This document shows positions 21,730 to 41,786 of a stretch of 64,000 nucleotides of DNA, piece after piece. Source of the DNA: Marsupella aquatica (taxonomy: Eukaryota; Plantae; Marchantiophyta); contig OZ316892.1 in the NCBI GenBank assembly GCA_973895155.1, forward strand, positions 3,847,223 through 3,911,222, written 5' to 3'. The position numbers and the translations under genes were made by a program. The notes beneath the pieces are model-generated. The model was not told the DNA's origin. It was given only the letters and a program-made list of their open reading frames with translations, and did not search any database. The first letter of the stretch is position 1. Every line of letters begins with the position of its first letter.

Positions 21730-22993
21730 ATGACCAACCTCGAAAAATTAACTTTCCCTGCACTAGAAATAGATGGCGGCAACTACCTAGAATGGTCCAT
21801 GAACCTCAAAGAAAACCTAACCTCGCTAACCCTACTCCCAGCGATAGGGATGGCCCAACCTATACTAGCTGGCGAACCCCAACCAAACCCGTTAACTAAA
21901 GCCAATGAATCGAAGGCCCTAGTATTCCTGAGACGCCACATCCATAGATTCCTACAGAGACAATACATGCACCTTTCGACCCCTCGGGAACTATGGACAG
22001 CCCTACAGACCCGATTCGACCACCAGAAACTGGTCGAACTACCTAAAGCCAGGCAAGACTGGCTAAACCTATGAGTCCAGGACTTTACCTCTATTTCAGT
22101 CTACAATAGCGAACTCTTTAGAATAACCTCAACCCTTGCACTATGTGGCGAGCCAGTTACGGACAAGGATCTGCTAGAGAAGACCTTGTCGACATTTCAT
22201 TCATCGAATGTGTGGCTATCAACACAGTATCGAAACATGAAGTTTGGGCAATACTCCGAGCTCATAGCCCACCTTCTAGTCACAGAGAGAAACCAAGAAC
22301 TCCTTTTAGTTAACTCTAGAAAACGTCCCGCGGGCACACTGCCCTCAAGATCACAGAGTGAAACATATCTTACCGACACCGCTGAACCCTCCACATCAAG
22401 GTAGGGCATTAAGTGCAGTAGGAATGGCAACCATAGAAACAACCCCAACAGGGGGAGTTTCTTTAACCAACGCCCACAACACAATTTCAGACGGTCCTTT
22501 AGTGGACGTGGAGGACGCGGAGGACGTGGAGGACGCGATGGACGCGGCGGACGCGGAGGACGAGGTGGACGCGGCGGTGGTAGAACATATAACAACAACC
22601 GTAGAAATGAATGGTCACAATCCCGACCACAACGAGAACGCCCAAAATGCCATGCATGCGGCATGACCAACCACCTAGCCAGAAACTGTAGAATCCCGCA
22701 ACACCTTAAAGAGCTATACCAACGATCCCTCAGGGACGGACAAACCTCTAGGGCACCACCCCGTGAAACCCACGGGGCGTTTATGGAGTCAAGCGACCCA
22801 TTCCAAGACTTTTCAGACCTACCTGCCCAACCCGAGGCACACTTAGTGGCAAGTAGCTCCACTACACCATATTTAAATAGCCCAAGCACATGTATATCGA
22901 CAGTGCGACCACGCACACTATCCTCAGGGATAGGCACCTTTTCCACAAGATTACACCCTCACGTAGATCCCTGACCACTATAAATGGCCCTAG
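21730..22993 (+). pseudogene. Copia gag and N-terminal half of the aspartic protease
   Basis: Gag with in-frame stops at 22072 and 22402, an RGG repeat (~22500-22580) and CCHC knuckle CHACGMTNHLARNC. Frameshift near 22895 into DSATTHTIL; cut by the CACTA at 22994. Confidence 0.9.
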
Positions 22994-23848
22994 CACTAGA
23001 AGAATCCGAGGTGAACTGAGACCGCAATATATGACTCATTTTGGCTCATGTGACTTCATTGTGACTCAACGTGACTTGACCCACGCTGTGACCCTTGGAG
23101 TTGCAAAAGTTGAGACCAAAAAATGGAAGTCACTATTGATACTGGGCTTTGCAACTTGCTTGATACCCATTTGTGACTGATCTGTGACTTTATTGTGGAG
23201 TCTAGCCTTGTTTCGACGTGACTGCAATATGACTTCAGCGAGTCATATCGTAAGTCACATACATGACTTACCCGCATTCAACAACGACTAGCGTGTGACT
23301 ATTTAGTGTCACAAGAGAGACCAATGGAGACCCTGGCCCGCGTCACACAACAGAACCATTTGGGACTCTATATACTCATGTTTATAACTAATAAGGTTCA
23401 CATGCAAGTTATAACCATGACTAATGAACACAGAGGGACAGTTCATAAGGAGAGAGAGCACTCGACATTACAATACATAGAAACCTGATGTTCTAACTTT
23501 AGAAATATAACACATTGAATACAAGAAATGAACATAGCATGAATGACATCCACATGAAACAAAGCATCATATAAGCAGATCCTACATAAAACATTCATAA
23601 GAATTAAACACAATCACAATCTTGCTAAAAAATGAAGATCATTTGAATTCCAATGGAATAGTTTACAATGTGATCAATGTAATTTAGACAAAACAGGAAC
23701 TCATAATTGATGATTGTAGGATGAGATAACTGAAAGCACATGCATGATACTATGAATCTCCAAGAGGACATGATTCTTGTACTGCTTCTTGACATCTAAA
23801 ATCTACATAACATGACTCACACTACAAACGAATAATGGCATGACATTG

Positions 23849-26800
23849 TTATGGATCCTCTATGAACTTGCTTGGCCATAATACCAAAGAACCTGCAGCA
23901 TCTCCAAGTGTCTTTTGAGGAGGATCATCATTTGTGTTTGGAATGGGAAGGACAGCTTTAGGTTTCACTAGTAATGTGACTAACACTACTGAATAACCTG
24001 GGGGTATCCTCTTGCCATGGAACGTTGTGGAACCAACCTGCACTCTGGCAAATCCTACTCGTGTTCCACTCTCATCAATAGCTAACAAGCCACTTTGTCC
24101 CTCAGCATTAGGTGCTTTCCCCACTTCCACCTTAGATCTTTCTGCCAGCACTGTTCTTGGAGGTTTGTATGAAACCTTTGACGTGGCTCTGCTCCCACCA
24201 GCAGACTTGCTTCGTGTGCGCATGCTTCCTCTCTTCACAGTAGTGAAGCTAGGCTCAGTAGGTTCCTCTGTTAGGACTGTCACAGTAGCAGTTTCATCAC
24301 CTGGGAGTGTCATACCAACTAACTCTTTGGTTGGATTTATCTCAACAAGAGGCACACCTGTCATTGAGAATGATACATTCTGCAAATCATTTATCTCTGC
24401 AATGGAGTCAAGATCTACATAGCATGAATCTGGCTCAATGGTATCATTGTCATGCTTGCTGATATCCTCATTTGCCCCAACATTGATATCATCCACTCCC
24501 TTGCCAATGTCATCCTCATCCAAACATGGTTGACTGCCCTCTGTCAAACAAGTTGCTTGTACAGACTGCAACTTTGTTGCCTCTAAATTACAGCGAGTAT
24601 TTGCCAGGTTCTCATACTTCTTCTCTGTAGCACCTGTCTTATTCTCTATGGACACAACAACCACAATATATGTTACTGAAAATAACACATTCAACAAACA
24701 ATGTCAATTCAAACTATACATTTAATAATCATATCCCACACAGTTGTAAAGGCCTTACCTTCAAGCCTACATGTCGTTGGCATGCCAGAAGAGTGCATCG
24801 ACTTTGCCACCTCAAGTGGTGATGGTGGAACTCCTGCAGAATTGGAATCAATTTTATCTCTCACCGACACAACAGCTTCCATTAATGTCTTGAAGTTCAC
24901 ATGGAACAAGTCAGTCAATGAATTCAAACGTTCATTGATCTCTGGAAGACATGTTTCGACAGCCTTCAAACGACCACTTATCTCTGTAAGTGAAGATCCA
25001 CCTCCCTACATGACACAGGGGTATAGGTTCAATCACTCCATATGAAATGTTGGGCAATATATGCACAATCAATGTTATATACAGTGTACACCTGAAATTC
25101 AACGCAGGTCATTCAATTACCAATCAGAACTCATATAACTTACATGCTTGGAGGATTCAGATGCACCCTCTTGAGCCCGGGTGTTCACAATTTCAGCCCT
25201 CAACTCTTCTTTTGAAGGGCTTTGCCCCAATTGGGCTTTCTGCACATGCATGGCAAACACAAGTTATCGATCAATATTCAGGGAACGTACACTAAAAAAC
25301 AAAGTTTACATGTATGGGTTTACACTAAAAAATAGTACATAGTGTAGCATAAATTACATAGCTAGGCCATTCATTCTTACCAAACGTTTAGCTGTCGGTG
25401 CAGTGCCGGTCCTTCCTGTCAGATTAGGGTTCTGAACACTCAACCTGGCCTCGGTCATCTGTGAACTCTTCTTTTTTGAAGCATCTGTTACAAAATAAGC
25501 TACTAACCTTGCCCACACTTTATCATCACAACTGGCTGGTGGAGGCATATCTGTCTTCTCCCCACCTTCCTTCCAAGCCTTATGCATTCTCCACCTCTCT
25601 TGCTTGATAATTTTACCTGCTGTACTCTCTAGGCAACCTATGTCCACGCCATCATCACTGCCCACATAATTCCATTTGGCAGCAACATTTTCACATACAG
25701 TCTTCCAATCTTTTGGATGCTGTTTTTTAAAATTAATAACACTCACATCTAACCAACGCAATACTTCAGCTTTCAAATCAGCATGCCATCGGTTCTTGCG
25801 AGGACACTCAGCATCCACCCATTGTCTCTCATTCAACTTTACGTCCCCTTTCTTTGTCACCTCCCCTCGTGCACTGCTCTCGGTAGTACTGGGCGTTGTA
25901 TTGGCCACCCCTTCATTCACCCTACCTGGGGTTCTGAAGCCACCTGGGAAAATACAATGCCATTCATGCTTGAGAACTACATATAGCAGAATGGATGACG
26001 GCAACATTCAATGCTTCACTTCAAGAAAAATTCTTCAAACATACATACCTGTAGCTTTGCCTGTAGATGCCTGTGCAGGGACTGCACTCTGAAATTGTTG
26101 CGACCCTGGACCACCTGTCCAGCCTAGTACAGGGGCCGGATGATGTCACTTTCTAGGTATGTGTGTGCAAACATATGTACTGAAAACTAAGTACAAACTG
26201 TAGGAAAACAACTGAACATTCACCGACATACCTGTCCCCCTTCCGTGCTGCATCTGCATAGGGGCATTAGTGAATACTTGAGTCGATGGTTCGACTGTCC
26301 AACCTGCACACATACATTTTCTATCATTATACATGTGCAGAGTCCCCCCCACGTGAATGGACTCCACATATAATGAGTTCTTCCATTGCTGACAAGATCA
26401 GACATTACCTGCTCCTCTTCCAGCGTTTGTAGGTACTGAATTTTGATATCCCTGCCAATTACCTTCACCACCTTCCCAACCTTGTTCATTCCACGACCCA
26501 CCACCATCCTCCCAACCTGGTTCAACCCATGTCTGTCCTTGTGGACATTGGAACTGATCATTACTAGCATTTGCCCAATCAGGTTGGGCAGAATCTGCAT
26601 GCAATGGCAGGTGGACAGAATTTCATGTTGTCTGAATCCAATACATCCCAAACAATGTCAAAAATTGATATGCAGTCTGAAATTCAGGAGTGCCATGCCT
26701 TCACAAAGAACTGGCATATAGATATATACTCACATCCCCATGGTTGAGGTGGACGTCCATACCCACGAGATTGTGGGTTTGGACCTGCTCTGCCTCTACC

Positions 26801-27560
26801 ACGGGCATAACCTAGAGCTTGCCCCCTGCCATAGTATTGGGCACCAGCCTGGGATCTACCACTACTACCACCTCGCCAACCTTGATCAGAGGTCAGCCCC
26901 CCTGCTGGTATGGTGCATGCACAGGCTTCGAAGGCAAAACAGAACTGGCAGGACGTTGCATCACATCACCAACTACAATGTCAGGAACTAAGCAAGGTAC
27001 ATATGTGTAGTACTGAACATATGAAACCTCTAAACAAGAGTTTTTAACTCAAAACCTTGTTGGGAAAACTACTTACATGTTTCTTTTGGGGCTGCTCTGC
27101 AATGTATTCATCTTCATAACCCCCATCCTCATCCATTTCCTCTGGAAAATACTCATCATCTGCATCTTCTTGTCTAGTGTCTGCACCCACCTGTGCAGCA
27201 TCAATGTCATCTCCACATTCTGCCATTGTAGGTACGACCTTCTTGCTCAACCTGTCACTCCGATGCACAGGCCCAGAGATAGTGCTGGTCACCCTTCTTG
27301 CGTACTCCTTTTGTTTCTTTGAAAATGTTGTGGCTCTGCGACATTCCAATATGAGAATACAGTCACAATTTCAGTGCCACATTGAACTATTCATGTCACA
27401 CAAACTCAGCGGAGGGGTGTAGTTGAGAATCGTTCCCTTACAATTTAGCCACATCCTTTTCCAGATCCAGTTCTGCAATTTTGGCTTTCACGTATGCTCG
27501 TTGTTCCATAGCTTTCCTTTCATACTCACACATCTCTGTGTCACTCTGTTCCATCCTACT
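23849..27560 (-). CDS. TnpA-like / Ptta-type second CACTA protein, multi-exon (exon model uncertain)
   Basis: 25354-26007 shows the Ptta/En-Spm-like pattern (QERWRMHKAW..PPASCDDKVWARLVAYF..KKSSQM.EAR..NPNLTGRTG). The C-terminus FHGKRIPPGYSVVLV..LPIP..TLGDAAGSLVLWP resembles the Tnp1/DUF8039-type domain. Several GT-AG exons lie between. Confidence 0.7.
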
Positions 27561-27710
27561 GGACCACAAAAACATGTCATCTATGGTCACCCCGTATAAC
27601 ACAATGCAACCACAATCACCAGGCATCCATCCATACATCTGTGTTGCTTCAGAATTACTTTATTACACATCCTTCCCCTCACTAATGTCCATGCAAAAAA
27701 TTCACATTAC

Positions 27711-30700
27711 TCATGGCACAGGCACACTGTTGGCATCTGCATCTCTGAATTCGCCTCCTTCAGCAAATACATCTACCCTTGTCACAGGAATGAAGTCCCC
27801 GCTATCATGAACTACAGGCACTTGGTCTGAACGCCGACGATCAAAGGCACTATGAGAGTGTAAATGAAACTCAAGGTTTGATCCTTCCATCCGACGTTGC
27901 CTGGCCTGTTTATGACACACTACACGCCAACCTGGGGAGTCTTCCACATCCAGGAAGAAAGCTTGCTCCACCTGACTAGGAAACACAAATGGCTCAGACC
28001 ATTCGGGCAATTTCCCTCTGAAATTGGCCAGCAAGAAACCGTCGTTGTCTCTCTTCATGGTAGCCCTGTTACCAAGCCAATCCTGCCGCACCCATGAACC
28101 TTTCATAAGAATCACAGGACTGGACACCGCCCCATAGTCCAAAGCCCATATGTCAACTAATTCTCCCACATATCCCATCTCCATCCAGGCCCTGTCGTGA
28201 TTGTGGCTCTGTTGCTCAAATACAGTGATGAGCCCGTAGTCATTCGTCACCCTGTAGGCACTGTCACCATCCTTCACTCGGAAGTGATTTCCATATGCTC
28301 TCATCCGTTTGTAAGTCTTCACTTTCAGGCTAGGGGCATTAGACAGTAGGTAAACATCTGCATCCATGTCTGGGTGGGTCTCGTGATGCTCTCTAATTGC
28401 CACTCTGATCCACTCCATGAAACCTGGAAAAGTTGTTCCTGCAGTGGGATGGGCCGCCTTCAATGACTCATACTCCCTGAACGAACAACCACACAGCATT
28501 AGCTTGGGTAAACATGAACAGGCTGAAGGAGAAAACCACACGAACACAACATTTAAGCTCATGAACTGGATTATAGCACATGTATGCACTCACTGTATCC
28601 AGGGTTCCATCACCACAGTGTTGTGCAATACAAAGTCATGTGCCAAGTCTCTCATAGATATGGTCAGGTTCTTTGTGGTTGCAGCCCCTTCCAGTACTTC
28701 ACCTATCACCCCTTCCTCCTCATCAGAATTCCACACCCTGGTCTTCACATGCTCATATTGTGCTATGTATTCGGTCAGAAATCCCAGAGTCTCATCCTTG
28801 ATGTAACCTTTAGCCATGCTTGCTTCAGGTTTGTAATATGTTCTCACGTGACCTTTGAGTAGCTTCATGTACCGTTCCAAAGGGTACAACCAACGAGCAC
28901 TCACAGGCCCAAATTGGTGTAGCTCTTCCACAACATGGACAAGTAGGTGGGTCATGACATCAAAAAATGCGGGAGGAAAATAAATCTCCAGGTCACACAG
29001 CACCTGAGCGACATCTTCTGTCAGTTGTGGGAAGTGTGTTTCATCCCAAACCTTCACACAAATACGACGAAACACATCACTGAGTCGCATGATCACAGTA
29101 CGAACAGGCTTCTGCAACAGGCCCCTCAGGCATAAAGGCAACACATGTTGCATCAACATATGGTAGTCATGGCTTTTCATACTACCAAGCTTTCTAGTCA
29201 TGATATGCTTCTTGAAAGCACTGCCATAGTTTGAAGGAACCTTCAAAGAACTCAACCTCTGCACAAATAGTTCCCACTCTGTGTCTGTCAGAACATAGGG
29301 CGCTTGGTACTTCAAGAGCACATCAGCTCTGTGGGCATGTGGCCTCAACCAAAGATGGGGTTTCATTCCCCTCTGTTCAAGATCCAATCTCACTGAACCA
29401 GTGTCTTTCTCTCCACACAAGAATCTGAGTAGACTCTCACAAATATTCTTTTCAATGTGCATAACATCAATGTTATGTTTGCTTGGCTCAAACTCCTGCA
29501 TCGTTGCAATGCAAAAGCGTCAGGAAATGCCTCAAGTTTAGTCTCTCTCTTCGAAATGAATGCACATGCTCTGAACCAAAACATGTATCCCAATTAGCAT
29601 CAACTCCAAGAGGCTTACCCTCCAGTACTTGAGCTCCAAGTCCAATATGCTCAGTCTTTTTACACCATATCGCTTTATTGGATCACTCACTCCATCTTCC
29701 CTGCCCCCTCGTTTGATATTGTCATCCCTCAGTGCTCCCCACTGCCTGATCTCCTCTTTGGTCACTCGTGCCGGGGGTCCACGTTGCTCAATCTCATTGC
29801 CAAAGTGTGCAATCAGTGCCTGTCTTTCTCTGTAAGGGTGATCTGCCTTCAGAAAATGATGATGGCCCATGTATATCACTTTCTGCAGGGCTCTGGAGTA
29901 CTCACTGGTGACATTGCGCCCACATATAGTACAAGCACAATATCCTTTTGTTGTTTGGCCTGATATCATCCCATGGGCTGGGTAGTCAGCTATAGTCAGA
30001 ATGACAATGGCTCTAAGGATGAATGGGTTTAACCTCCCAAGCCTCTGTAGGACATCATATGTGAGAACTCCTTCCTCCCAAAGCTTTCTCAATTCCTCCA
30101 CTAGGGGAGCCAGAAACACATCTATGTTGGCAGATACAGCACTGTCTGGCCCTGGTATCAGTAGGACCATCAGAACAAAAAATCGCTTTATAGTCATCCA
30201 AGGACGAAGGTTATAATTCAAAATAGTTACAGGCCAGCACGAAAATTTGTTGTTCTTGTCTCCAAATGGGTTTACCCCATCCAATGACAGCCCAAGTCTG
30301 ACATTCCTCGGCTCAGCAGCAAATTCGGGATACATCTCATCTATGAGTTTCCATTGCCTTGAATCTGCAGCATGTCGTTGTAGCCCATCATCACTTTTCT
30401 TGTCAGTTGCCCAAGTCATCATCTCCGAGATGGCACGGCTTCTGAACATCCGCTGAAGTCTGGGAATGAGTGGAAAATGACGAAGTACCTTGGCGGGAAC
30501 CATAGACTTTCCTGAGTTCCGATACCTGTGCTTCATACACTTAGGGCATGTCAACGATTCTTTATACTCCTTTCTGAAAAGAACATGCCCATCAGGACAG
30601 GCATGGATCGAATCATAGTTCAATCCAAGATTAGATATGCATCTTTTTGCCTCGTACATGTTCTTGGGCAAAATATTACCATCTGGTAGCACAGTTGTTC

Positions 30701-31442
30701 GCAAGAATGCCAACAACTCAGAAACCAAAATGTTGGGGACATTGTGGTTGCCGCAAATGTTCAGGAACATGATGACAAATCCCAGTTTAGAACATTTGCT
30801 ACCGGGGTACAAAGACTTCCTGCCTTCCTGTATTTGCAGGGGAGAGCCAAACATCCCATCATGCCCAGGGGTTTCCTGCCCTATCTCAAACTCATCAAGA
30901 GGCTCTTCGACAGGGGGCACACTTGCATCTGCAGCCGTATCCTCTTCATTGTCCAGCCCATCATGAAATGCATCCAAGTCTTGGAAGATGTCTCTCACCA
31001 TCTCTTCCACATGAATTCCTTCGTCACGTGGTGCTGCCTGAGCACCATCCCGTTGGAGAGCTGACAACCCACAGAGACCAGCTACAACATTTTCAAATGC
31101 ACCAGGCAGAACCTCACTTGCCCGTCTTGCAGCATTGGCAGCATCAAATTCTAACCTCCACTCCTCGTCGGAAGAATCTTCCTCTGCAGGATCATTCCAA
31201 ACTCGATGTCGTGGATCTCTTCCATGAACCGCGATATGCCGCCAAACCTCATTCAGACCCCTGGTACGGGATCCTTGGCAGATTGCACAAGGACATCTCA
31301 TCCTATTGGCTCCTGAAAGTCTGGTTCGTAACCTTTCACGCTGCCAAAGCTTATTATCATGGCGTGATATCCTTGTGGGATGATGCAAAGGCAGTGCCTG
31401 TGCCCTGGGCTGGGTCTGGGGAGGGTGGTGACCAGGGTGCAT
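27711..31442 (-). CDS. CACTA TnpD/Tnp2 transposase, apparently intact
   Basis: Exons ~31442-29619, 29495-28594, 28476-27711 join in phase. Motifs MRCPCAIC..H (transposase-associated domain), IHACPDGHVLF, RNVRLGLSLDGVNPF, TIADYPAHGMISG, HNIDVMHIEKN, MKSHDYH, FFDVMTHLLVH, RWLYPLER, EPFVFPSQVEQAFF. Confidence 0.93.
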
Positions 31443-31875
31443 TGTAACAGGCTGGGAGCTCTGCAGTCATGGACAGCAGTGAACAAGGATGCCTAATGGT
31501 GGTATTTGTGTTCCATATATCCCTGACTGTATCTGCCAAAAGAGTTAACATAACGTGTACTAAATTCTCACAAACCCTAAACCACCCCAAAAGAAAAAAA
31601 CAGGTTCGCAAGTAGTGTACCTATTGTCAAGTGAATGACACAAAATTCCTAAATGTTGGAGGGTGTCACCACCTCCTCCGCTGTCCTCAAATGTACCGCC
31701 TCTGCATGTACGTTTACAGTGACACCCCCAGGCAGCAGGAAACAACAATCCGCCAACAGTAAAATAAGCCCTACTGCCACCAACCATAACAAGGTACATT
31801 AGTTCAAAGATCACATTTATTTCAATGATCTGATTTATACAAAAAAACTTGTGTCCAAACTGATGCTACTACTCC

Positions 31876-32748
31876 TCACTCTGATTCAGAATCGCTAATG
31901 ACCCATTCCTCACTTGTTGTCTCATAGTCCTCTCTGTAAGGATCCTGACCCTTCCGTGGCCAGGCCTCAAAAAGATCATAGTCCATTGGGTTTTGACGCT
32001 TCCCAGCTGCTACTGATTCCACAAGCCAAGCATATGAAACCACAAACACATTATGGGACATGACATAAAAGCGAATGTCTCCCTTCCCAAACTTGCGGCA
32101 GGCTTTGGGATATGACTTAGTAATGACATGAGTGGTGTCCTCTGTTATATTCTCCTCCACTGTCCCACCTAGGTCAAGCACTGTGGACTTGTACACTTTG
32201 CACTTAACCTCTCCAATTCCCGCCTCCACAAATACCATGCTCAGCCCTTTCAGAATGGGGGTTGGTTGCTTCGTCTCCTCAGCCAACATACACTTCAGCC
32301 TTGTAGAGCTCTGTCCTTTGTTGAGTACAGGTCCATATTGGAGATCAGCAAGCCGTGCCTTTGCTTCCCAGACTTCTTGTTCAGCCCAAGCTGATGCAGA
32401 AGCTTCTTCATCCTCCCACAACTCATATTGCTCAGTATCCTGTACAATCTTATGTGCTATGGAATCTGTGATCCAAGAGGCCTCAACTACTTTTAGGCCT
32501 TGCTTAGTAATTGCAGAATTCATGTAGGACCATGACCACTTCTTTATCACTGATAGCCATGTCCCTGCAACAACATGTGTAGTCTCTGGAGTGATGTCCT
32601 GAACTACAGTGCCATGGAGCTCAGAGAATCGTTTCTGTACAGTTGGCCAATGCACTTTGGTCAACCCATGCTGGCCATGGACCAAAATCGCTCTGACCCC
32701 TGTAAACACTGCTGGGTGGTCACACTTTCTACGTTTACCAGGCTCCAT
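31876..32748 (-). CDS. Tandem BRCT-domain protein (DNA polymerase lambda-like BRCT), CACTA cargo
   Basis: Uninterrupted 290-aa ORF from ATG 32748 (MEPGKRRK). Two repeats: VFTGVRAILV..LHGTVVQDITPETTHVV..VVEASWITDSI and ILKGLSMVFVEAGI..LGGTVEENITEDTTHVI..KFGK..VSYAWLVESVAAG. These show the BRCT Gly-Gly, THV and WxxxS hallmarks. Confidence 0.82.
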   Translation of the reverse strand: MEPGKRRKCDHPAVFTGVRAILVHGQHGLTKVHWPTVQKRFSELHGTVVQDITPETTHVVAGTWLSVIKKWSWSYMNSAITKQGLKVVEASWITDSIAHKIVQDTEQYELWEDEEASASAWAEQEVWEAKARLADLQYGPVLNKGQSSTRLKCMLAEETKQPTPILKGLSMVFVEAGIGEVKCKVYKSTVLDLGGTVEENITEDTTHVITKSYPKACRKFGKGDIRFYVMSHNVFVVSYAWLVESVAAGKRQNPMDYDLFEAWPRKGQDPYREDYETTSEEWVISDSESE

Positions 32749-33339
32749 GTACACACACTCTACGTGATGACAGTGAATTTGGAAGAATGGGTTCACCTGA
32801 CAATACAAGGACAACAAAATTCCTGCTTTTTGAGTTGATCTGGCCCACTGGTGCTCAAGTCCGATTTTGATAGGTACAAGGGATATGTGAACAATACGTA
32901 CTAGGCACCTGCACGGATGCAGGACATTGTTTGAATATATACTACAAAATCCATATCCGTGGTGAAATGAAGTGCAACCAACTTGTCATGGCACATACAT
33001 ATTTTGTTGTAAAGGAGGATACATTCAATGACAAACTTATAGGGCAATTTGATTAATTGCATGCCTGATAATTTATACGCTTACAACTTAGAAGTCCTGT
33101 TTTAATTTAGCAGTCTGATGAAAGTGTTTATGAAAATGACCACTCAGCCTAAATACTTCCAAGAAGGCTTGTAAGGATAAGTTTGTATAGGCATGTACCC
33201 AGCCACTGACGCCAGAGCACAAGATAAGTGCTGCCTATATAAACTCGCCTACCCAACTCCTTTTCAAAATTGGAATCTCTGCAATCTCAAAAAATAGTAC
33301 ATCCACATCAGGTGCACTGTGCATGTACAATGTTCAGCT

Positions 33340-34020
33340 TCACAGCCAAGATATGTGATCTCTCACAGGAGTGCGCGAGGTAGGATCAATGGCATGGCGA
33401 TGACAATAAAATATCCATCGATCAACACCATGTGCAGAGTGATCATAGATTTCTCTGTCACAAGCATAACCCTCTGCTTGATGATCTTTCAGGCAATGAT
33501 AGTGCCACATAGTGGGACACCTAGCACAGTGGACTATGTCAGTCCAGTAGTCATCATCATGCTCACCACATGCCTTGCACCTATGAAGTGGGCAAGCTGT
33601 GGCATGAGCAGGCAAACACTCAAAACAGAAAAATCTCACACAAAAACGGTCTGGACATTTCCTAACATTTGCTGCAGCATCAACAGAGCCCTCATAGGAC
33701 CCCAACTTCCCACACTGTGCACACTTAGCCTGCTTCTCCAAACAATCAGTGCACATCCAGTCTCCCTGGTGTGTTGACGGGAGGCCCACCCCTGGACAGT
33801 TGTTTTCTGCAGCAAGGTCAGACTCCGGGTTGAGGTGGAAATGCCTCATGCAAGGGCCCTCACAAATGACCAGGCCCCCACCATCGTCACAAATGGCACA
33901 ACAATGAGCTGCCTTCTGGAAAATCTGACTTGCAGAGAAGTTAGTAGCATCTGCCCCAAGTACACCTGTGTTTCTCACCTCTGTCACACGCTTTTTGGCT
34001 TGAATTTTAGGCCGTGCCAT
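33340..34020 (-). CDS. Stand-alone EDM2/NSD-type tandem PHD-finger protein, CACTA cargo
   Basis: Intronless 226-aa ORF: CAICDDGGGLVICEGPCMRHFH..WMCTDC..KCAQCGKLGS..CPLHRCKAC..CARCPTMWHYHCL..IFYCHRHAID..TPVRDHI. Collinear with the PHD cassette of plant EDM2 as recalled (CAICDNGG..CEG.C.RSFH..CPLHKC..TPVRDHV). Confidence 0.85.
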   Translation of the reverse strand: MARPKIQAKKRVTEVRNTGVLGADATNFSASQIFQKAAHCCAICDDGGGLVICEGPCMRHFHLNPESDLAAENNCPGVGLPSTHQGDWMCTDCLEKQAKCAQCGKLGSYEGSVDAAANVRKCPDRFCVRFFCFECLPAHATACPLHRCKACGEHDDDYWTDIVHCARCPTMWHYHCLKDHQAEGYACDREIYDHSAHGVDRWIFYCHRHAIDPTSRTPVRDHISWL

Positions 34021-34031
34021 GCCTGCGCATG

Positions 34032-34175
34032 AGATAGACTCTACAATTTAGCAGACTGTACAGAAAGTAAAATATATTTAGCATTTAAGGTACAAAGGCA
34101 TTTAGATAGACTCTACAATTTAGCAGACTGCACAGAAAGTAAAATATATTTAGCATTTAAGGTACAAAGGCATTT
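34032..34175. repeat. 72-bp tandem duplication just upstream of the PHD ORF
   Basis: AGATAGACTCTACAATTTAGC...AAGGCATTT starts at 34032 and at 34104, with one mismatch. Confidence 0.92.
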
Positions 34176-34790
34176 GCTACTGCAATGAATTGGAATGGCC
34201 ACACAAGGATGCAGAGCACACATACTTTTGGTATGTTGAGCCCACACACAAAACTGATCCCCTAATACAATTTCTCCACCAACACCTCAATTTTAATTGT
34301 GGCTATGATTCACCAAAGGAGATCTGCAACAACATTTCATGCATTTGAATCACATACAATAGTCGTGACATGTAAAACAGGCATTCTTCGAAGAGGATTG
34401 GTATGAAGCAGTGTCATAAGGGTTGAAATTTATACATCCTAAATAGGTTATGATAGTGGCTGAGACAAATAAGTGAGGCATAAATCATTTTGCATATTAT
34501 CACATGGCCCATTAATTCATTCAACGTTGCAATGTTCACCAGGTTAAAGCAGTCATGAAAGCAGTCTTTCAATAGAGACTTTTATGCGAGTTTGCTAGCC
34601 TCTTAAATTAGGATATTTTGCTTAGTGCAGGCATAATAGGATATAAGTTATGTACTGTTGACCCTAAACCCTGGACCCAAAATTGCTCATACATCAAAAT
34701 TTTAAGTAAATATCCTCTGTGTTGAAGTCAGAGTGTTAAGCTATAGGTCAATGGTATCTGGTCTGTGCATGCGGTGTGACAAGTGGTCCT

Positions 34791-35240
34791 CTAGAGCATG
34801 TGATCCAAACATGTGTAGACACCAAAGTCACCGGTGGTGGGGTCTGGGAGGGCAGGACAAGTGACATCACCAGGCACACTGCAGGATGGCGAGTGGTTCC
34901 AGATGATACATTGTGCTCTGTGCAAAAATCGGCATCCAAGAGAACGGTCATCCAATTCTGGGCCAGAAGCCCTACAGGCAGGACAGTCATATTGGCAACT
35001 GTGTACACACCCTTGGCACCTAATTTGTGGCGGGTCATGTACAAGAGACACAAATACCAAGGATGTCGGGAAGGGTACTGAAGCAGGTAGAGGCCGGCTG
35101 TAGTTGTTCCTGGAAACAACAGGGTACTCAAAGTACCATGCAGACTGGGCTGGAAGGATCCCAAGTCTGACATACTCAAGGCGCAACATCTCTGCCTTGC
35201 GTGCAAGTCGCACATGTTCAGCGTTGCGGGTCCTCACCAT
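34791..35240 (-). CDS. Cys/His-rich hypothetical protein (possible zinc finger), CACTA cargo
   Basis: 149-aa ATG-initiated ORF co-oriented with the other CACTA genes; CQGCVHSCQYDCPAC..CRFLHRAQC..C..C..YTCLDH. Family not recognised. Confidence 0.5.
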   Translation of the reverse strand: MVRTRNAEHVRLARKAEMLRLEYVRLGILPAQSAWYFEYPVVSRNNYSRPLPASVPFPTSLVFVSLVHDPPQIRCQGCVHSCQYDCPACRASGPELDDRSLGCRFLHRAQCIIWNHSPSCSVPGDVTCPALPDPTTGDFGVYTCLDHML

Positions 35241-36248
35241 AAGTGTTGCTTTCGTTGTGATGTCCTCTGTTCACGTCCTTTGATGAGCAAGGTGAGCAGG
35301 AGGTCGACTTGCCTCGCCAACAGCAACCACCTAAACTAATCAGTTCCCACTCATTGTCTTGGTTCCAACTACAGGTCATAGTATACACATAGCATGAAAC
35401 GTGCATAGTACATATTTGATTCTGAGTTTATGAGTTTCCTAAGACAAAGAGCTTGGTGATAAACCCATATTCTCGACGGACATGTATATCAATCATATTA
35501 AACTCCTGTTTTTTCATCCAGAAAGACCGAAAGTCTCACCTTGCAGGTTGCAGCAGAGAGAAAATTCACTGGTTGTCGTGTTGTGCAAGTGAACCTCCAC
35601 TGATGCCCCGGTGTAGCCCCTCAGATGCAGGTGACACTTACCAACTCCCAAGTTGCCTGGTCTAACAGAAAATGCTTATATCTTCAGAACTTTATAGAGC
35701 AAGTACATGATCACATACTTCTGGATCTATTCATATTTGGAACTCTTGCCAACTACAACTCCCATTATGCACAAGCTCACATCAACAGAGAAAGATACAG
35801 AATGCATACTTACTATGGCTCTAAGCACCTTCACTACCTTGTTGAACCCAGTCCTGAAGTCTTTTCAGCGTGTTTGTTGTGCTGTCTCCTTTGGCACCCA
35901 ACACCTTAGTCCTTGATGTAACAGAATGCGATTTTACAAGTTAGATGCTTTGGAACCTTCTATGGTCTTAGCTGAATTGATGTCATCGTAAGTGGTGAAA
36001 GACAAGGAAGACGAAAGCTGGTTGAAGAGCTGTGGACAACACACTAGCATGAAGTGCTTCAACCAATCCACTGCCAAACGGAACTCTTACACAGTCACAT
36101 TCTTTTAGTAAACAAAAACTCAGTCAAACTTCAGAATCAAAGTACAGACTCTGAAGGACCAAAGGAGGATGTTGTGAGTTTCTCTGTTGTTTAATGTGTT
36201 ACCCTTCTAGTTTCAAAGTTAGCAAATGCTGAATAATGTGTCTACCAG

Positions 36249-36591
36249 ATCTTCGAAAAGAAGCCCACCACAATTAAGAACTTCGGTATCTGGGTCCACG
36301 TATCAGAGTCGTACAGGTTATCACAACATGTACAAGGAATATTGTGATACCACAAGAAACGGAGCTGCAGAGCAGATGTATGATGAGATGGCTTCTTGTT
36401 ATAGAGTTCGGTTCCCTTGCATCCAGATCATGAAGACTACGACAGTCCCTGTCTCTCTGTGCAAGCGAGAAAGTACCAAGCAGTTCCATGATTCAAAGAT
36501 CAAGTTCCCCTTGACGTACTGCAAGATTCAACCTCCATTGCGAAAGCTAAAGAAGACTTACAAGGCCACCAAGCCCAACACAATTGTTTGA
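36249..36591 (+). pseudogene. RPL18A: Captured last exon of 60S ribosomal protein L18a (eL20)
   Basis: After a CAG acceptor: [15 protein letters not shown](frameshift)[51 protein letters not shown]. Several Arg>Cys changes; a 3'UTR-like tail follows. Confidence 0.92.
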
Positions 36592-38721
36592 GTAGTGCGG
36601 GTGCAGGTTCCCAATTTTGAGACAATTTGGCTCATTTTATGTCCCGAGGGAATCCTGGAGTTTATGTATTGAGTTTCTAGGTGAAGATGCTTAATATAAG
36701 GAAATTCAATTATCACTTCGTTCCCAACTTCTATTAATTGAAAATACACAAGCTGGAAGCAAGAAGACAAGCCACAATCTAGCATCTTAGCCAAACACAA
36801 TCGTCCCGACAAAGCAAAACTCAGCTGGACAGAAGTCACTCGGATCCACAAAAAATTGAAGATTCACCTCCAAGCCGGAGGCTGATCACTTCAGTACAGC
36901 AGCTTCTAGACGGAACAAACTCTGCTCAGCCCCACAGAAACACAAATGTTAAGGCTCCAAGTCAGAGCTCACAAACAGAAACTCAGATAAATAACATTCA
37001 AAATCTGTCCAGGTTTGTGCAAAGTGTACATATTCATTCTTCTGGAATGAACACGCAATGCATACATCACCTAGACACAGTCATTATAAATCATTGGGCG
37101 ATTGGGGACCACTAAGCAGGTGTGTTCCTATTTCGAGGCTACAGGAAAGGATAGAGTGACACCAAACTCAAGAGTACACCAAAAGAAAAACAGCAAGAAC
37201 CAAAGTCAATCATGTGTGGATAAACTGCACATGGGAAGTTCCCCTGAAGAAGCATCAGTTGCTAACATTGTCACCCGAACCACACCTAGTTTATGACCTC
37301 AATGTCTTCAGCCTCAATATCCAATCCTCAGCCCCCTGGTGCTTCCGTGTTTGTTCTGAAAATTTCTGTGATGAAATAATTATTCAATACATTCAATAGG
37401 AGTTCAGACAATCTGAAGAGGACTTTGGACTTGAATGGGGGACAGCGTGGCCATATAGTTATCCTTGTGGCCTTCAGCTACGTGTCTCACGCTGAATTTC
37501 ACTTTCCAGTTTCGAGAGTTGTGAAGGTCTAGTTTTAGTAACTTCCTCCTGACTCGACTTGGGAGCATTCTCTGTATTTGCTAGCTTGTAGTTAGCTTTG
37601 ACTCCTTTCAGCTTAGTTGACGACCCTCCTGAGATATTAACAATTAATATCAAAGGCATTGAAACAAAGCGGGTGGCAGTTTCAGTATCTCAGGCAATGC
37701 AAAATTAATCCATACTTAATCAGCCCTGGCCACACATTCCTTCAAAGCCCCTCATACTAGCAAGCAGGTCTGGCCTGTGAATCTTGTAGTGCTTAACGAT
37801 ACAAAGCCTTCCCAAGTACCAATTCAAAAGTAGCAGAAATAGATCGAAAGCTAGTTCCGATGATAGCTCCCAAAAGCTTTCCTCAGCCCGATTCCTATGC
37901 ACATCAGAGGAGCTCAAACCATTTAGAAATGAGATCACAGATTACTCTTGACAATCTCAAAAATGCCACAACCTAAGCACTGACAGCTCCGTCCCCCCAT
38001 TCTAATTTCTCCGACAAGTTTGCCTTAAAGCACATCCACTCGCAGTTCAAGCAGATTCAGAATCATCATAGACAATAGAGTGTTCTACCATAGCCCACGG
38101 TAGGTCCACGGCCATCGTAACAAACGCTCCACCCCCGGGGCTTATTAGTATTGCTCACTTTTAAGAAGGGCAGTTTTCGCAAAAGCAGTCTAATTGCCTA
38201 GACTGCACTAGAAAAGTTGGAGGCAATATCACAACGGAGCATTCTGCGTCTAAGGGAGAGCGACGCCGTTCAGGAGATAGATGCGCGAGAGAGTGAAGAT
38301 GGTGGGGAGTGGAAGACGGGTTGGGACTGGACCCTTGGTGCCGGTGGGTAATATGTGGGGTTTCAATGAACAATGGGCCAGTTTGAGGAGGATTAAGAAG
38401 CGCGCACCCCACGTTCTTGTGTGGTGGTTGGGTGGGGTTTTGTTTGATAGAAGAAGAAATCACCATTCTCTTATGGAAGAAAGAAAATCGTAGGAAACAG
38501 TGGGCGGGAGAACAAGGCATGTAATAGAGAACAACGAGGCATGTAATAGAGTACTTGCGGTTACTCTAATGGTGCACAAACACTCACCTTTGTCTTCCGC
38601 TTTGTCTGCTGTGGCCAACAAATCCCAGAGCGCTGCCGAGCTTGGTGGTTGCTTGATGGTTGAAAGTGCGTAGCTCACGTCCCTACCTCAATGTCCAACT
38701 CAATGTGGGATGCAACAACTT

Positions 38722-38790
38722 CTCTTGGTCGCATCTCCTCTTGGTCGCATCTCCTCTTGGTTGCATCTCCTCCTTGTCGCAGCTCCTCTT
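38722..38790. repeat. 16-bp tandem repeat, ~4 copies
   Basis: TCTTGGTCGCATCTCC and variants. Confidence 0.75.
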
Positions 38791-41786
38791 GGGGTTCACA
38801 GCTAGCGCGCAGCAGCGCTCGATTGTTGACAATGCGCAGCTGAGCTAGGAGAAGAACTGAATGACTGTGGCTGCTCTTCTCTGCAGTCCAAGCACCCGGC
38901 TGGCAGAATGCTACAACACCTGAAAGAAGCGCACTTTCAGCTGCATGGCCGGGACTAGTAGAAGCCGTTGACGGTGAAGGGCATTCTCGGTTTGGACCTC
39001 CTCTCTCCAACCCCTTCTAACCCGCACCTCCAAAGTTGTTTCGGGAGTTGATTAGCAATAACGTCGCTCCTATGCCAAAGGCACCAAGAACCAAGCCAAA
39101 AGAAAGGGTTTAGCAAAGGGAGAGCGATGTAGTGTGCACTGATCAATGACTCAAAGTTGACGTTGAACCCTCCATTGCGCTAGCTATTGGCGATTGCCAC
39201 ACAGAGAGCAGCCGTATGTAGCAAACTGTAATGCAGATACTCCCGTCAAAGGTCGATGCGTCACACTCAGCTTTAGAGGAAGGATAAACGATTGAGCAGC
39301 ATTGCATTGTGCAAAAATGTTGGAGAAGCACATTGCTTCCAGGCCCGAGCTCACCTCCTTCCCCTTTCACCACTTCGCAGCTCCTCCAAGAGACATTCAC
39401 TCAAGGGCACATCACGCAGTTGCTTGCCCTCCTCAGAAGCTCAACACCACAGCCACCAAAGTTGTCAGCTCCCACTGCAACTGAACAGGTCACTACCAAA
39501 AGCCCGCTCCCACCGCAGCTGAACAAGTGAGCGACACAAGAGTGTAGGACCTCCGCCAAGCCCAGGGCAGCAGCTCAATGAAACTCAATTTGCAACTCGT
39601 CTCACTCTCGCTCTTGCTGCAAAGAAAAAAAAGCGCAGGTCAAACTCCTTTGTGGCCTCAGTCCCCACCGCTTTCCCCAAGCTATGGACAACTACTAGCA
39701 GCTTGCGCTCACAGCATGACATCCAGGTCTTTAGCCAACTGCACACTGGAAACCGAGAGAAGTGAGCGCAGTCACGCAAGGCCAAAAAAGACCAAAGTTG
39801 AGCCAAAGCAAAACTTTACTAATGTATTTACAGTCAAGCATGAGGGCAATCAGGTAAGCAGAAGACCACGCATTCCCGCAAAGAGTTGTAGGTTCTCGTC
39901 ACTTCCTCGCCTCTGTATAGAAGGTCGATCGTTGTATCTCGGGTACCCAATGACAGTGGAGATGAATGCAAATAGGCCTCACCAATCGCCAGTCATCCGC
40001 GATAAACCTCCCGACAACCTTGCTCCTATACACCTTAGCACCCGCATTGTCACCACAAGAAAGACGAATGTAAGATTTAGGGCCCACCTAAACCCTATAG
40101 TGAGATTGCAGTCGACAATGGGTCATATAGCAAAGGTCGAAGCTCCAAGCCCTACGCAATGACATGAAATCCCACCTCCAAAAGCGCTAAATGTATTGAC
40201 TGAGTGCGATCAGGTGCAAGAGTCGAGAGCAACTGAGGAAAAGTGCATTATCGGGCGCAAAGTGTTTGGCCTTGGATTCCCTTGCAGAAACGTGAAGGAA
40301 AACCCTGGTGGTAGCCGTCGACACTTTGTGCAATTTTCCTTTACAAAATCCGTTTACCCTAAACATTGAGTCGACTGGAAGGACTCGTTCATAGGCATTC
40401 TGCAAGCACCTAACACATTTAGACGTAAGTTCACAGTTAGGATTAAACGGTAACTAAGACCAAGGGTGCATGCATTTATTTTTTTGGGGGGGGCTTTTAG
40501 TTGGGTATTTTGGGTATAGTCATTGGGTTAGATAAATATCCTAAGTCACCCAGATGGCAAAAAACAACACCTACCCTTAAACTCACCCTCCTCAAGCATA
40601 AACCCTCTGAAAACCCATTGGACATTTGGAGTCATTGGCAAAATAGGGTTAAATGGATGAAGAATGGACCGGGGGGGATGGATGCCGACGATCCAATGGT
40701 CCCTAAACCCCCATCCCCTTAACATGCAACCCCCGACCCTTGACATCAAACCCCCCCTAAACCCCCTTTAGTGAAAACCCAGCCACCCCCTAGCCTTGAC
40801 ATATAAATTGCCCCGGTTTCTACTAGTGTGTGAAAACTTTCCCGCTCATGAAACAACAAGACTCTCACTTTGCGGGCGCACTCTCTCTTTCTCCAAGTCC
40901 CTCCACAAAAGCTTTTGGCAGTCAAAAGTTTAGGGCAAAAGCTATTGCCAGTTGTATCAACTTGCAATTGCGCAACATGGTTCATTGGAAGAGGGCTTCC
41001 GATAGAGAAATTGATGCAACGGCATTGCATTGTGCACTTAAGGAAAAAGAGGTCCTAAATTGGGCCCTTCAATATTCCCATATGAAGGGGGTTCCATTTG
41101 ATATTGGCTAATTATGGGGTATATATGCAGAGCAAATTTTTAAAATGAGTTAGTGGATGAAGTGAGTTTTAATATGTGTGTGAGCAGTATGTGACAAGTA
41201 CCACTAATTGGTTGTGGTGACTTTTTTAAGGTAACTATGTATGTAGAGTATTAGGGTTTAGGGTGCATCATTATTTTGGGGGGCATGGCACAAATTTTCA
41301 CACCTTTTTGAACTCAGTTGCGGCCGTGTACATGAATGTTAACTTAAATTTGGTTGGTTCTTGTCTAGCTAGAATCACAAATTTGCCCTACTTACCTAAA
41401 CTTCAATTAGGGTAAAAATGTCATGTATACTTTCTTACAGGGGAACAATAAAGAGCAACTCAGTGATGGTTAAAGCAAAGGGAGGTAACTATATATAATT
41501 GCATGACATAATGTGATTAATATGATGGATCCAAAATCATATGTATTGGGCAAGGAAATCATGTAAGTCATGGTCACTTATATAACTTCAATATACTTGC
41601 CTTAACTCAGTTACAGAAGCAACTTTCCCAATAGTTAAATACATGACTTCCCAGAACTTCACCAAAAGTGAGTCAAGAAGATGTAACAAAGATGACACCC
41701 TAAACCTTGGAGTCACTTATTTTCAAAGGTCTCACACAAGTCATGTAAGGTTGGGTCTCAGAATGGCTCGGTTTCTTCTAGTGTAG

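What the first reader, a model, noticed from the sequence alone, without database searches (positions are those of the whole stretch)
33340..34020. Intronless stand-alone EDM2-type PHD cassette inside a transposon
Seen: a 226-aa ORF with a short basic N-terminus (MARPKIQAKKR) followed only by PHD fingers, ending just after TPVRDH. A splice acceptor (CAG) lies 2 nt before the ATG. Established: the EDM2 PHD fingers read H3K9me2-containing marks, and the ASI1-AIPP1-EDM2 complex promotes full-length transcription through heterochromatic, TE-containing introns. Inference: a TE-encoded minimal reader could protect the element's own transcript from premature polyadenylation or act as a dominant-negative decoy.
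Basis: partly seen in the sequence, partly recalled or inferred. Interest (0 to 1): 0.85.

Follow-up and report, generated by a model that had tools for sequence, protein, structure and literature searches.

The report
Transposon-borne EDM2-type histone reader gene
A complete 18.8-kb CACTA transposon carries its own small, uninterrupted gene for the three-PHD-finger module found in the plant chromatin protein EDM2, the same short gene is kept in distant relatives, and it likely reads histone marks for the transposon's benefit, a role that is predicted, not tested.

Summary
Window 33340..34020 (minus strand) is an uninterrupted 226-aa ORF: a basic N-terminus, then three NSD/EDM2-type PHD fingers with all 24 inferred zinc ligands, ending TPVRDHISWL-stop.

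It lies inside a complete CACTA element (22994..41783; CACTAGAAGAA inverted ends, TAG target duplication). That element is itself inserted into a Copia polyprotein.

The best named relatives are EDM2 proteins (Arabidopsis EDM2 residues 225-432, 30% identity, E 2e-27). The ORF is not a recent copy of a host EDM2. It belongs to a clade of short, unnamed stand-alone ORFs (support 100/100) that lies outside the seed-plant EDM2 clade (100/96). Members share the basic start and the DHISW end down to 37% identity.

Among laid copies, listed substitutions are enriched for synonymous sites and no indel falls in the ORF.

A conserved twin-BRCT ORF sits between it and the Transposase_21 gene.

The most likely reading is a selected accessory gene of a CACTA lineage encoding a nuclear histone-H3-tail reader. 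Its role (anti-silencing or read-through versus targeting) is inferred only. No RNA evidence could be obtained. Five literature searches found no description of such a gene.

The parts
33340..34020 (-). 226-aa stand-alone ORF: basic N-terminus (1-16), PHD1 (C41..C93), PHD2 (C100..H146), variant PHD3 (C148..H209), conserved tail TPVRDHISWL
22994..41783 (-). complete CACTA (En/Spm-type) element, 18,790 bp, genes on the minus strand
41754..41783 (.). terminal inverted repeat at the element's 5' end (...TTCTTCTAGTG); TSD TAG at 41784-41786
22994..23023 (.). terminal inverted repeat at the element's 3' end (CACTAGAAGAA...); TSD TAG at 22991-22993
23049..23308 (.). subterminal GTGACTT-type short repeats (6 of the window's 18 GTGACTY matches lie in 23050-23258)
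34032..34175 (.). 72-bp tandem duplication (2 copies, 98%) directly upstream of the ATG; variable among copies; AT-rich TATA-like stretch in each unit (promoter role inferred only)
31876..32748 (-). 290-aa twin-BRCT ORF, second accessory gene; AATAAA 54 nt after its stop
27711..31466 (-). transposase gene (Transpos_assoc, Transposase_21, DUF4218, DUF4216) in one frame, interrupted at 29520-29540 and 28590 (the latter inside a CA|GTGAGT donor-like site, so probably introns)
25354..26007 (-). weak Transposase_24 (TnpA-like) match, E 1.6e-4, below cut-off

Best explanation
The 226-aa ORF is an accessory gene of a CACTA transposon lineage, kept as a short stand-alone reading frame, and its product is predicted to be a nuclear reader of histone H3 tails built only from an EDM2/NSD-type triple PHD cassette. 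Shown: it sits inside a complete, once-mobile element; it is an ancient diverged relative of the EDM2 cassette and not a fresh host copy; its start, stop and zinc ligands are conserved across a clade of short ORFs. Inferred: the protein likely docks on methylated H3 in the heterochromatin that covers copies of its own family. There it would favour expression of the long multi-gene element. It could do this by standing in for EDM2 in read-through of heterochromatin, or by shielding H3 tails from host silencing readers. It probably works together with the neighbouring twin-BRCT protein. My odds: about 0.85 that it is a selected accessory gene, about 0.45 that it acts as an anti-silencing or read-through helper, and about 0.25 that it is a targeting or transposition cofactor. 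The confidence given (0.55) is for the statement as a whole: a selected accessory histone reader acting for the element.
For: Element. CACTA inverted ends and a TAG target duplication. A Transposase_21 transposase (E 4e-68). An insertion that splits a Copia frame cleanly.

Identity. phmmer over 1.84 billion representatives gave 249 hits. After the short unnamed ORFs come 1000-1400-aa proteins with the cassette at about 220-435. NCBI names these ENHANCED DOWNY MILDEW 2, and one cluster holds A. thaliana EDM2. Direct BLASTP to EDM2 residues 225-432 gives E 2e-27. NSD2 residues 661-794 align with ORF residues 32-174.

Fold. AF2 pLDDT 83.5 and pTM 0.78. Foldseek matches H3-binding PZP modules at E 5e-5. 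VIA gives Z 5.5 to the NSD2 PHDv-C5HCH tandem.

Conservation. 5 of 5 word-search homologues (82-37% identity, 217-245 aa) keep DHISW at the end, and 4 of those 5 start at MAR. 10 of 10 TE-type rows with an intact C-terminus stop within 10 residues of H(I/V)(S/A)(W/T), while most host proteins run on for hundreds of residues. The zinc-ligand columns are invariant or nearly so in 14 and in 26 sequences.

Clade. The 10 TE-type rows form one clade (100/100), and the seed-plant EDM2 clade (100/96) excludes them (quick tree of 125 rows).

Copies. 18 of the 40 listed substitutions are synonymous, against 21% expected (P 6e-4 under uniform mutation). No indel is listed in 761 bp. 12 of 12 listed indels in 25000-36000 lie outside the ORFs.

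Neighbour. The twin-BRCT ORF has homologues at 59% and 54% identity with the same start and length.

Background. EDM2's PHD fingers bind H3K9me2, and the ASI1-AIPP1-EDM2 complex promotes distal polyadenylation through intronic heterochromatin (passages of PMC7529245; PMC7472560).
Against: There is no transcript, protein or binding evidence of any kind.

The ORF is only 30-39% identical to EDM2 cassettes and sits on a very long stem (about 2 changes per site), so H3K9me2 specificity may not be kept.

It lacks all other EDM2 regions, so recruitment of AIPP1/ASI1 is unsupported.

Pfam matches are each below the gathering cut-off.

The synonymous excess rests on the 40 best-supported of 75 variable sites. 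It was counted site by site, against an expectation without transition bias, so it is modest evidence.

Homologues come from gene calls on short contigs, which by construction show only open frames. Some relatives are clearly decayed: P0010 is frameshifted, P0011 and P0012 are truncated, and L001 has an in-frame TAG.

Only the window shows the ORF inside a CACTA element. The context of the other family members could not be read.
Confidence: 0.55

Rival explanations
1. Targeting or transposition cofactor. The PHD protein, perhaps with the BRCT protein, would tether or license the transposase on chromatin carrying a given histone mark. It would then steer excision or integration and would not affect transcription. 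RAG2's PHD finger does this for RAG1-like transposases, and chromodomains do it for chromoviral integrases.
For: There are two small conserved ORFs with protein- or histone-docking domains and no enzymatic domain, placed directly upstream of the transposase. BRCT pairs usually act in DNA-break signalling (established knowledge), which fits cut-and-paste transposition. A precedent is a captured reader that enhances a transposase: RAG2 with Transib (abstract start in the listing, PMC4840297).
Against: No interaction could be tested, because the complex predictor was not available. No insertion-site bias can be read from one copy. The chromodomain comparison is recalled and comes from no call.
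Confidence: 0.22
2. The ORF is not a stand-alone gene. It is the first coding exon of a longer spliced product, such as a PHD-BRCT or PHD-transposase fusion, made from the element's primary transcript by alternative splicing as in En/Spm.
For: A donor-like CCT|GTGAGA after codon 218 and an acceptor-like ...ttgtccttgtattgtcag|GTGAAC at about 32797 would join in frame to the BRCT ORF. En/Spm elements are known to use alternative splicing (recalled).
Against: The eight residues after that donor (VRDHISWL) would be intronic, yet DHISW is invariant in 6 of 6 aligned sequences down to 37% identity, and the matching RDHI.FP is coding in host EDM2. BRCT homologues start at the same Met. Most laid copies carry one extra base at 32777, between the acceptor-like site and the BRCT ATG, which breaks that frame: X1 1641 of 1641 depth, X2 12062 of 12801. 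Chance alone gives an open in-frame join about one time in seven (my estimate).
Confidence: 0.12
3. A host gene fragment picked up by the element (transduplication, Pack-CACTA style) that has no function and survives by hitch-hiking.
For: CACTA elements are known to capture host sequences (passages of PMC13317346). Some family members are broken.
Against: The carrier has its own transposase. The ORF covers exactly one whole domain cassette, with all 24 inferred ligands. Start and stop are shared across relatives at 37-82% identity. There is a synonymous excess and no indels among copies. The clade has a deep internal history. A neutral fragment would not stay open that long.
Confidence: 0.1

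Closest known systems
EDM2 (ENHANCED DOWNY MILDEW 2) of Arabidopsis and its seed-plant orthologues
   Same: The same triple PHD cassette in the same order. It aligns over ORF residues 41-225 with EDM2 225-432 (E 2e-27). It includes the long insert between His and Cys in PHD1 and the closing motif TPVRDH.
   Different: Only 30-39% identical. There is no N-terminal RFD-like domain and no C-terminal region (226 aa against about 1300). It is about 19 residues shorter between PHD2 and PHD3. In PHD2 a Cys stands where NSD2 and EDM2 have His. It lies outside the seed-plant EDM2 clade. It is carried by a transposon.
NSD1/2/3 PHD modules (animals)
   Same: Pfam families PHD-1st_NSD, PHD_NSD and PHDvar_NSD. 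NSD2 661-794 aligns with ORF 32-174. The best structural match is NSD2 PHDv-C5HCH: Z 5.5, rmsd 2.6 over 75 residues.
   Different: There is no SET, PWWP or other NSD domain. Sequence similarity is marginal (E 0.011).
Short PHD-only 'EDM2-like' proteins annotated in Triticeae (259-339 aa; cluster of P0041)
   Same: Short proteins made almost only of the same cassette.
   Different: They sit inside the seed-plant EDM2 clade, not with the transposon type. They run on past the RNHIKF motif. They are annotated as host genes.
RAG2 PHD finger with RAG1-like/Transib transposases
   Same: A histone-reading PHD protein that serves a DDE transposase as a separate accessory subunit (abstract start; the rest recalled).
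   Different: It is a single PHD on a kelch propeller, unrelated in sequence, in animals, and its function is known. Here the function is untested.
VANC anti-silencing proteins of VANDAL (Mutator) elements
   Same: A transposon-encoded accessory protein that counteracts epigenetic silencing of its own family (abstract starts of PMC10398659 and PMC5735166 in the listing). This is what the ORF may work like.
   Different: VANC binds DNA motifs and is not a PHD protein. No sequence relation appeared in any search here.
Pack-CACTA / transduplicated gene fragments
   Same: Host-derived coding sequence inside CACTA ends.
   Different: Those are non-autonomous carriers of recent fragments. This is an autonomous-type element with an old, complete, conserved ORF.

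Membership tests
PHD zinc fingers (NSD/EDM2-type triple cassette) | Three consecutive Cys/His ligand sets with PHD spacing | tested here: met
   All 24 inferred ligands are present: C41 C44 C53 C57 H62 C75 C90 C93; C100 C103 C122 C127 C132 C135 C143 H146; C148 C151 C165 C168 H173 C176 C206 H209. These columns are invariant or at least 90% conserved in 14 and in 26 sequences. The ligand assignment is my inference from spacing and alignment.
PHD zinc fingers (NSD/EDM2-type triple cassette) | Significant profile match to the NSD-type PHD families | tested here: inconclusive
   PF23011 23.9 bits (cut-off 27), PF23004 23.2 (27), PF22908 17.9 (23.9). All three are in the right order but each is below its cut-off. 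phmmer to cassette-bearing proteins is strong.
EDM2 protein family (host) | Cassette homologous to EDM2 residues about 225-432 | tested here: met
   BLASTP E 2e-27, 30% identity. Named EDM2 hits at E 1e-16 to 1e-20.
EDM2 protein family (host) | Full architecture: N-terminal RFD-like domain and long C-terminal region | tested here: not met
   The ORF is 226 aa and holds only the cassette. 7 of the 26 representatives scanned carry DNMT1-RFD ahead of the cassette.
EDM2 protein family (host) | Placement inside the EDM2 clade of seed plants | tested here: not met
   The seed-plant clade (100/96) excludes the 10 TE-type rows. A sister position is not rejected (AU p 0.14).
EDM2 protein family (host) | Binding of H3K9me2-containing H3 tails; association with AIPP1/ASI1 | not testable with these tools
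   This needs peptide arrays and co-IP. The background is from passages.
CACTA (En/Spm) DNA transposons | Terminal inverted repeats beginning CACTA | tested here: met
   CACTAGAAGAATCCGAGG... at 22994 and its inverse at 41783; 30 nt, 80% complementary.
CACTA (En/Spm) DNA transposons | 3-bp target site duplication | tested here: met
   TAG at 22991-22993 and at 41784-41786. The Copia frame is continuous across the empty site.
CACTA (En/Spm) DNA transposons | Transposase_21 (TnpD-type) transposase | tested here: met
   PF02992 E 3.7e-68, plus DUF4218 E 4e-28.
CACTA (En/Spm) DNA transposons | TnpA-like second protein and subterminal repeats | tested here: inconclusive
   Transposase_24 scores only 22.3 bits against a cut-off of 28.7. 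There is a cluster of GTGACTT repeats near the 3' end.
Pack-CACTA / transduplicated fragment | Non-autonomous carrier with a recent, often partial, host fragment | tested here: not met
   The carrier has a transposase gene. The ORF is a whole domain unit at 30-39% identity to host genes and belongs to an old clade.

The most novel reading that the evidence does not exclude
A lineage of CACTA transposons has carried its own two-gene chromatin module, an EDM2-type histone reader and a twin-BRCT adaptor, since before the sampled seed-plant EDM2 genes diverged. It uses this module to turn the host's heterochromatin mark into a signal that keeps the element transcribed or guides its transposition. 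This would be a transposon counter-defence built from the host's own reader.
Probability: 0.3. Interest if true: 0.85.

Novelty: new variant of a known kind. Interest (0 to 1): 0.62.

Why it matters
Plant transposons are known to carry a few accessory genes that fight silencing (VANC), and to pick up host fragments. I could find no report of a conserved, transposon-borne copy of the very reader that the host uses to transcribe through heterochromatin.

If the protein binds methylated H3, it gives a directly testable case of a mobile element using a host chromatin reader for itself. It would also be a natural minimal EDM2 cassette for dissecting what the PHD module does without the rest of EDM2.

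The adjacent conserved BRCT gene suggests a larger, undescribed accessory module in high-copy CACTA families of large plant genomes.

Tried and rejected
RNA evidence. The look-up of sequencing runs listed 13 runs. 11 hold part of the stretch and none is on record as RNA ('no RNA holder listed'). Laying X1, X2, X3 and X5 on 25000-36000, and X1, X3, X5 and X7 on 33300-34060, gave only short contigs. No joint had intron-like ends on the minus strand, so expression and splicing stay open.

Complex prediction (PHD with BRCT). It was not available. The queue was full, and searches came too early and were not sent on. Nothing was folded.

Whole genome. None is held for this window, so copy counts and full-length copies could not be collected.

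The search for homologous proteins with lengths 'longer'. 0 of 340 candidates scored. The exhaustive phmmer later found the long EDM2 proteins, so that blank was a limit of the word index.

Metagenome scan. 1 locus of 136 pattern matches (L001, 1867 bp). It is too short to show neighbours. No BRCT ORF lies in the 667 bp after its stop.

dN/dS between the window and L001. Not attempted, because 41% identity is saturated.

Donor at CT|GTGAAG over the stop. Rejected as a general explanation of the conserved end. P0004 ends ISWI-stop, which cannot hold a GT there, and joining to the 32797 acceptor-like site gives an immediate stop.

BRCT origin. The PDB search gave only BRCA1 BRCT at E 0.006, and the Atlas gave generic BRCT clusters at 0.88 or less. 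No host parent was identified.

Earlier notes of this scan. Three look-ups returned nothing.

Literature. Searches, and term searches inside PMC13317346 and PMC13547354, found no CACTA element with PHD, EDM2-like or BRCT genes. Subscription papers, Repbase reports and supplements were not seen.

CACTACAA search for the ends. At chance level. The true ends read CACTAGAAG.

Full report
**The observation**

On the minus strand, 34020 down to 33340 is one open frame of 226 codons plus a stop. It begins MARPKIQAKKR and ends TPVRDHISWL. An in-frame stop lies nine codons upstream of the ATG. The window holds a single copy.

Pfam places three NSD-type PHD families side by side: residues 39-93, 96-140 and 148-180. 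Each is a few bits below its cut-off. PDB sequences give the same reading. NSD2 661-794, its first three PHD fingers, aligns with residues 32-174 at E 0.011, and the AIRE PHD1 finger matches PHD1 at E 0.003.

All 24 Cys/His positions that I assign as zinc ligands, from spacing and alignment, are present. These columns are invariant or at least 90% conserved in alignments of 14 and of 26 sequences.

An AlphaFold2 model from the 26-row alignment is confident for residues 30-226 (mean pLDDT 83.5, pTM 0.78) and disordered for 2-25. Foldseek matches the H3-tail-binding PZP modules of BRPF1 and JADE1 at E 5e-5 to 2e-4, though with low TM-scores (0.2-0.28), and the NSD PHD5-C5HCH tandems. The exhaustive aligner puts NSD2 PHDv-C5HCH first: Z 5.5, rmsd 2.6 over 75 residues. 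That is a modest score by the tool's own guidance.

**The surroundings**

The only long inverted repeat around the ORF is CACTAGAAGAATCCGAGG... at 22994-23023 and its inverse at 41754-41783. TAG lies on both outer sides.

Within these ends, all on the minus strand, the order is as follows:
- about 7.7 kb without a recognisable gene;
- the PHD ORF;
- a 290-aa ORF with two BRCT domains, E 1.7e-13;
- a transposase with Transpos_assoc, Transposase_21 (E 3.7e-68), DUF4218 and DUF4216, plus a weak Transposase_24 match.

The transposase parts share one frame. They are broken at 29520-29540 and at 28590, and the latter break sits in a CA|GTGAGT donor-like site, so these are probably introns. GTGACTT-type short repeats cluster at the 3' end.

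Outside the ends, the left flank encodes Copia gag and a zinc knuckle, in a frame that reads ...SLTTINGPS at the junction. The right flank continues SQIEEGFGP... into gag-pre-integrase, integrase and RVT_2. The 18,790-bp unit, PHD ORF included, therefore moved as one piece into a Copia element.

**What it is related to**

A word-index search found five proteins of 217-245 aa at 82, 75, 53, 37 and 38% identity, all from unnamed assemblies. The search for longer proteins scored none of 340 candidates. That blank was a limit of the index, because an exhaustive phmmer over 1.84 billion representatives found 249 proteins at E <= 1e-3.

In that search the top seven (E <= 1e-30) are again short unnamed ORFs. 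Below them come proteins of 1000-1400 aa with the cassette at about residues 220-435. Sources name these ENHANCED DOWNY MILDEW 2 in Neltuma and Cryptomeria, and one cluster contains A. thaliana EDM2 itself. BLASTP of the ORF against that EDM2 aligns 41-225 with 225-432: 30% identity, E 2e-27.

The closing motif is shared. Hosts read TP.RDHI.FP and then continue, whereas the transposon type reads TP.RDHISW(L/I) and stops. None of the 13 transposon-type proteins looked up carries an NCBI or UniProt record.

**Phylogeny**

I built a profile from the first six sequences and cut the cassette out of 134 proteins that cover it.

A quick tree of 125 rows (nine dropped, see below) puts the 10 transposon-type rows on one side of a branch, with SH-aLRT 100.

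A careful tree of a hand-picked 50 rows (LG+C20+F+G4) gives that clade 100/100, on a stem of about 2 changes per site. The seed-plant EDM2 clade, which includes the conifer and the short Triticeae EDM2-like proteins, gets 100/96 and excludes the transposon type. The nearest group is a set of liverwort proteins that carry the cassette at their C-terminus, but support is weak (65/75). The bootstrap had not fully settled.

The AU test does not reject a sister position to the seed-plant clade (p 0.14).

So the ORF is not a recent pick-up of a host EDM2. Either it was captured before the sampled seed-plant EDM2s diverged, or it evolved so fast that its place is blurred. The tool flags long-branch effects, and I cannot exclude them.

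The nine rows dropped from the quick tree were six same-cluster duplicates (P0158, P0159, P0160, P0161, P0162, P0164) and three partial rows (P0144, P0145, P0146).

**Signs of selection**

Start and end are shared over great distance. DHISW is invariant in 6 of 6 aligned sequences, and four of the five homologues begin at MAR. 10 of 10 transposon-type rows with an intact C-terminus end within ten residues of the motif.

Contigs of four public runs cover all 30 bins of 25000-36000. Within 33300-34060, 40 variable sites are listed and 35 more are not shown. Counted site by site, 18 are synonymous and 22 are not, against 21% expected for uniform mutation (P 6e-4). A transition bias would raise the expectation, so this is modest evidence. 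The triple changes in codons 134 and 160 travel together in one contig and give Ser and Val, not a stop.

No indel is listed in those 761 bases. The 12 indels listed over 25000-36000 all fall outside the ORFs, including 33287 and 33302 just after the stop and 34144-34713 upstream (P about 8e-5 if placed at random; 17 further indels are not shown).

Against this, some relatives are plainly broken. P0010 is frameshifted and P0011 and P0012 are truncated. The one related DNA locus I could fetch has an in-frame TAG at codon 22 but is otherwise open to ISWL-TAG. This is what a transposon family looks like: selection on the active lineage and decay of dead copies.

**Stand-alone or exon?**

A donor-like GTGAGA after codon 218 and a good acceptor-like site at about 32797 would fuse the cassette in frame to the BRCT ORF. 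I rate this low for three reasons:
- The eight residues after that donor (VRDHISWL) would become intron, yet the DHISW within them is the most conserved stretch of the tail.
- BRCT homologues at 59% and 54% identity start at the same Met and have the same length.
- Most laid copies have an extra base at 32777 that breaks the linking frame.

AATAAA lies 54 nt after the BRCT stop. After the PHD stop only ATTAAA and TATAAA occur, at 233 and 262 nt. A 72-bp tandem duplication with an AT-rich, TATA-like stretch abuts the ATG and varies among copies. Whether the ORF has its own promoter, or is reached by splicing of a common leader to the CAG two bases before the ATG, cannot be decided without RNA.

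**Mechanism**

What is established for EDM2: its PHD fingers bind H3K9me2 and other marks, it binds H3K9me2-marked chromatin at transposon-derived introns, and with AIPP1 and ASI1 it promotes distal polyadenylation (passages of PMC7529245; PMC7472560; PMC3632883).

The element here is 18.8 kb long, with at least four genes in one direction. In a plant it would normally be heterochromatic (inference). That is the setting in which such a reader matters.

My best reading is that the protein enters the nucleus through its basic N-terminus and docks on modified H3 tails over copies of its own family. It would then help the element stay expressed. It could bridge to host read-through factors, or it could occupy tails that host silencing readers would otherwise use. 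All of these steps are inferred.

A targeting or licensing role for the transposase is the main rival. It has a precedent in RAG2 with Transib-type transposases (abstract start) and fits the DNA-break flavour of BRCT domains. I could not test binding between the two small proteins, because the complex predictor was not available.

**Novelty**

Searches for CACTA with PHD or EDM2, CACTA with BRCT, EnSpm with PHD finger, DNA transposon with PHD finger, and EDM2-like with transposase found no description. Term look-ups in a 2026 review of gene capture and in a 2026 atlas of transposon products also found none. I saw only passages and listings. Supplements, subscription journals and Repbase entries were not seen.

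I file it as a new variant of a known kind: transposon-encoded accessory or captured chromatin proteins. It is not a member of the EDM2 family proper, because two defining features, architecture and clade, were tested and not met.

Noticed in passing
window 31876-32748 (-): A 290-aa ORF with two BRCT domains lies between the PHD ORF and the transposase. Homologues of 294 and 295 aa (59% and 54% identity) share its start, M(A/E)PGKRRK. No host parent was identified. It is probably a second accessory gene of the element.
   Followed up: partly
window 21691-22993 and 41784-45200 (+): The CACTA element is nested in a Copia retrotransposon. gag and a zinc knuckle lie on the left. Gag-pre-integrase, integrase and RVT_2 lie on the right. 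The reading frame is continuous across the empty site (...NGPS|QIEEG...).
   Followed up: partly
window 12893-18084 (+): A Helitron-type gene: Helitron_like_N (E 1e-54), followed by PIF1 helicase and the Pif1 2B domain.
   Followed up: no
window 2372-4517, 51934-52998, 61305-63504 (+): Three copies of a DUF6469 plus AAA_11/AAA_19 (superfamily-1 helicase) gene, spread over the window. This may be a tandemly amplified gene family or another repeat.
   Followed up: no
window 34032-34175: A 72-bp unit is duplicated in tandem (98% identity), ending 12 nt upstream of the PHD start codon. One laid contig (X5) skips about one unit here and another (X3) lacks 4 bases.
   Followed up: partly
L001 530-1200: A metagenome contig holds a 41%-identical copy of the PHD ORF. 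It has one in-frame TAG at codon 22 and the same ISWL-stop end (stop codon TAG, where the window has TGA).
   Followed up: yes
proteins P0016, P0020, P0021, P0031, P0032: Liverwort proteins (Calypogeia, Riccia) of 619-768 aa carry the same cassette at their extreme C-terminus, behind about 500 residues without a Pfam family. They are the weakly supported nearest neighbours of the transposon type.
   Followed up: partly
proteins of the P0041 cluster: Wheat and Aegilops have annotated 259-339-aa 'EDM2-like' proteins made almost only of the cassette. They branch inside the seed-plant EDM2 clade, so PHD-only derivatives have arisen more than once.
   Followed up: partly
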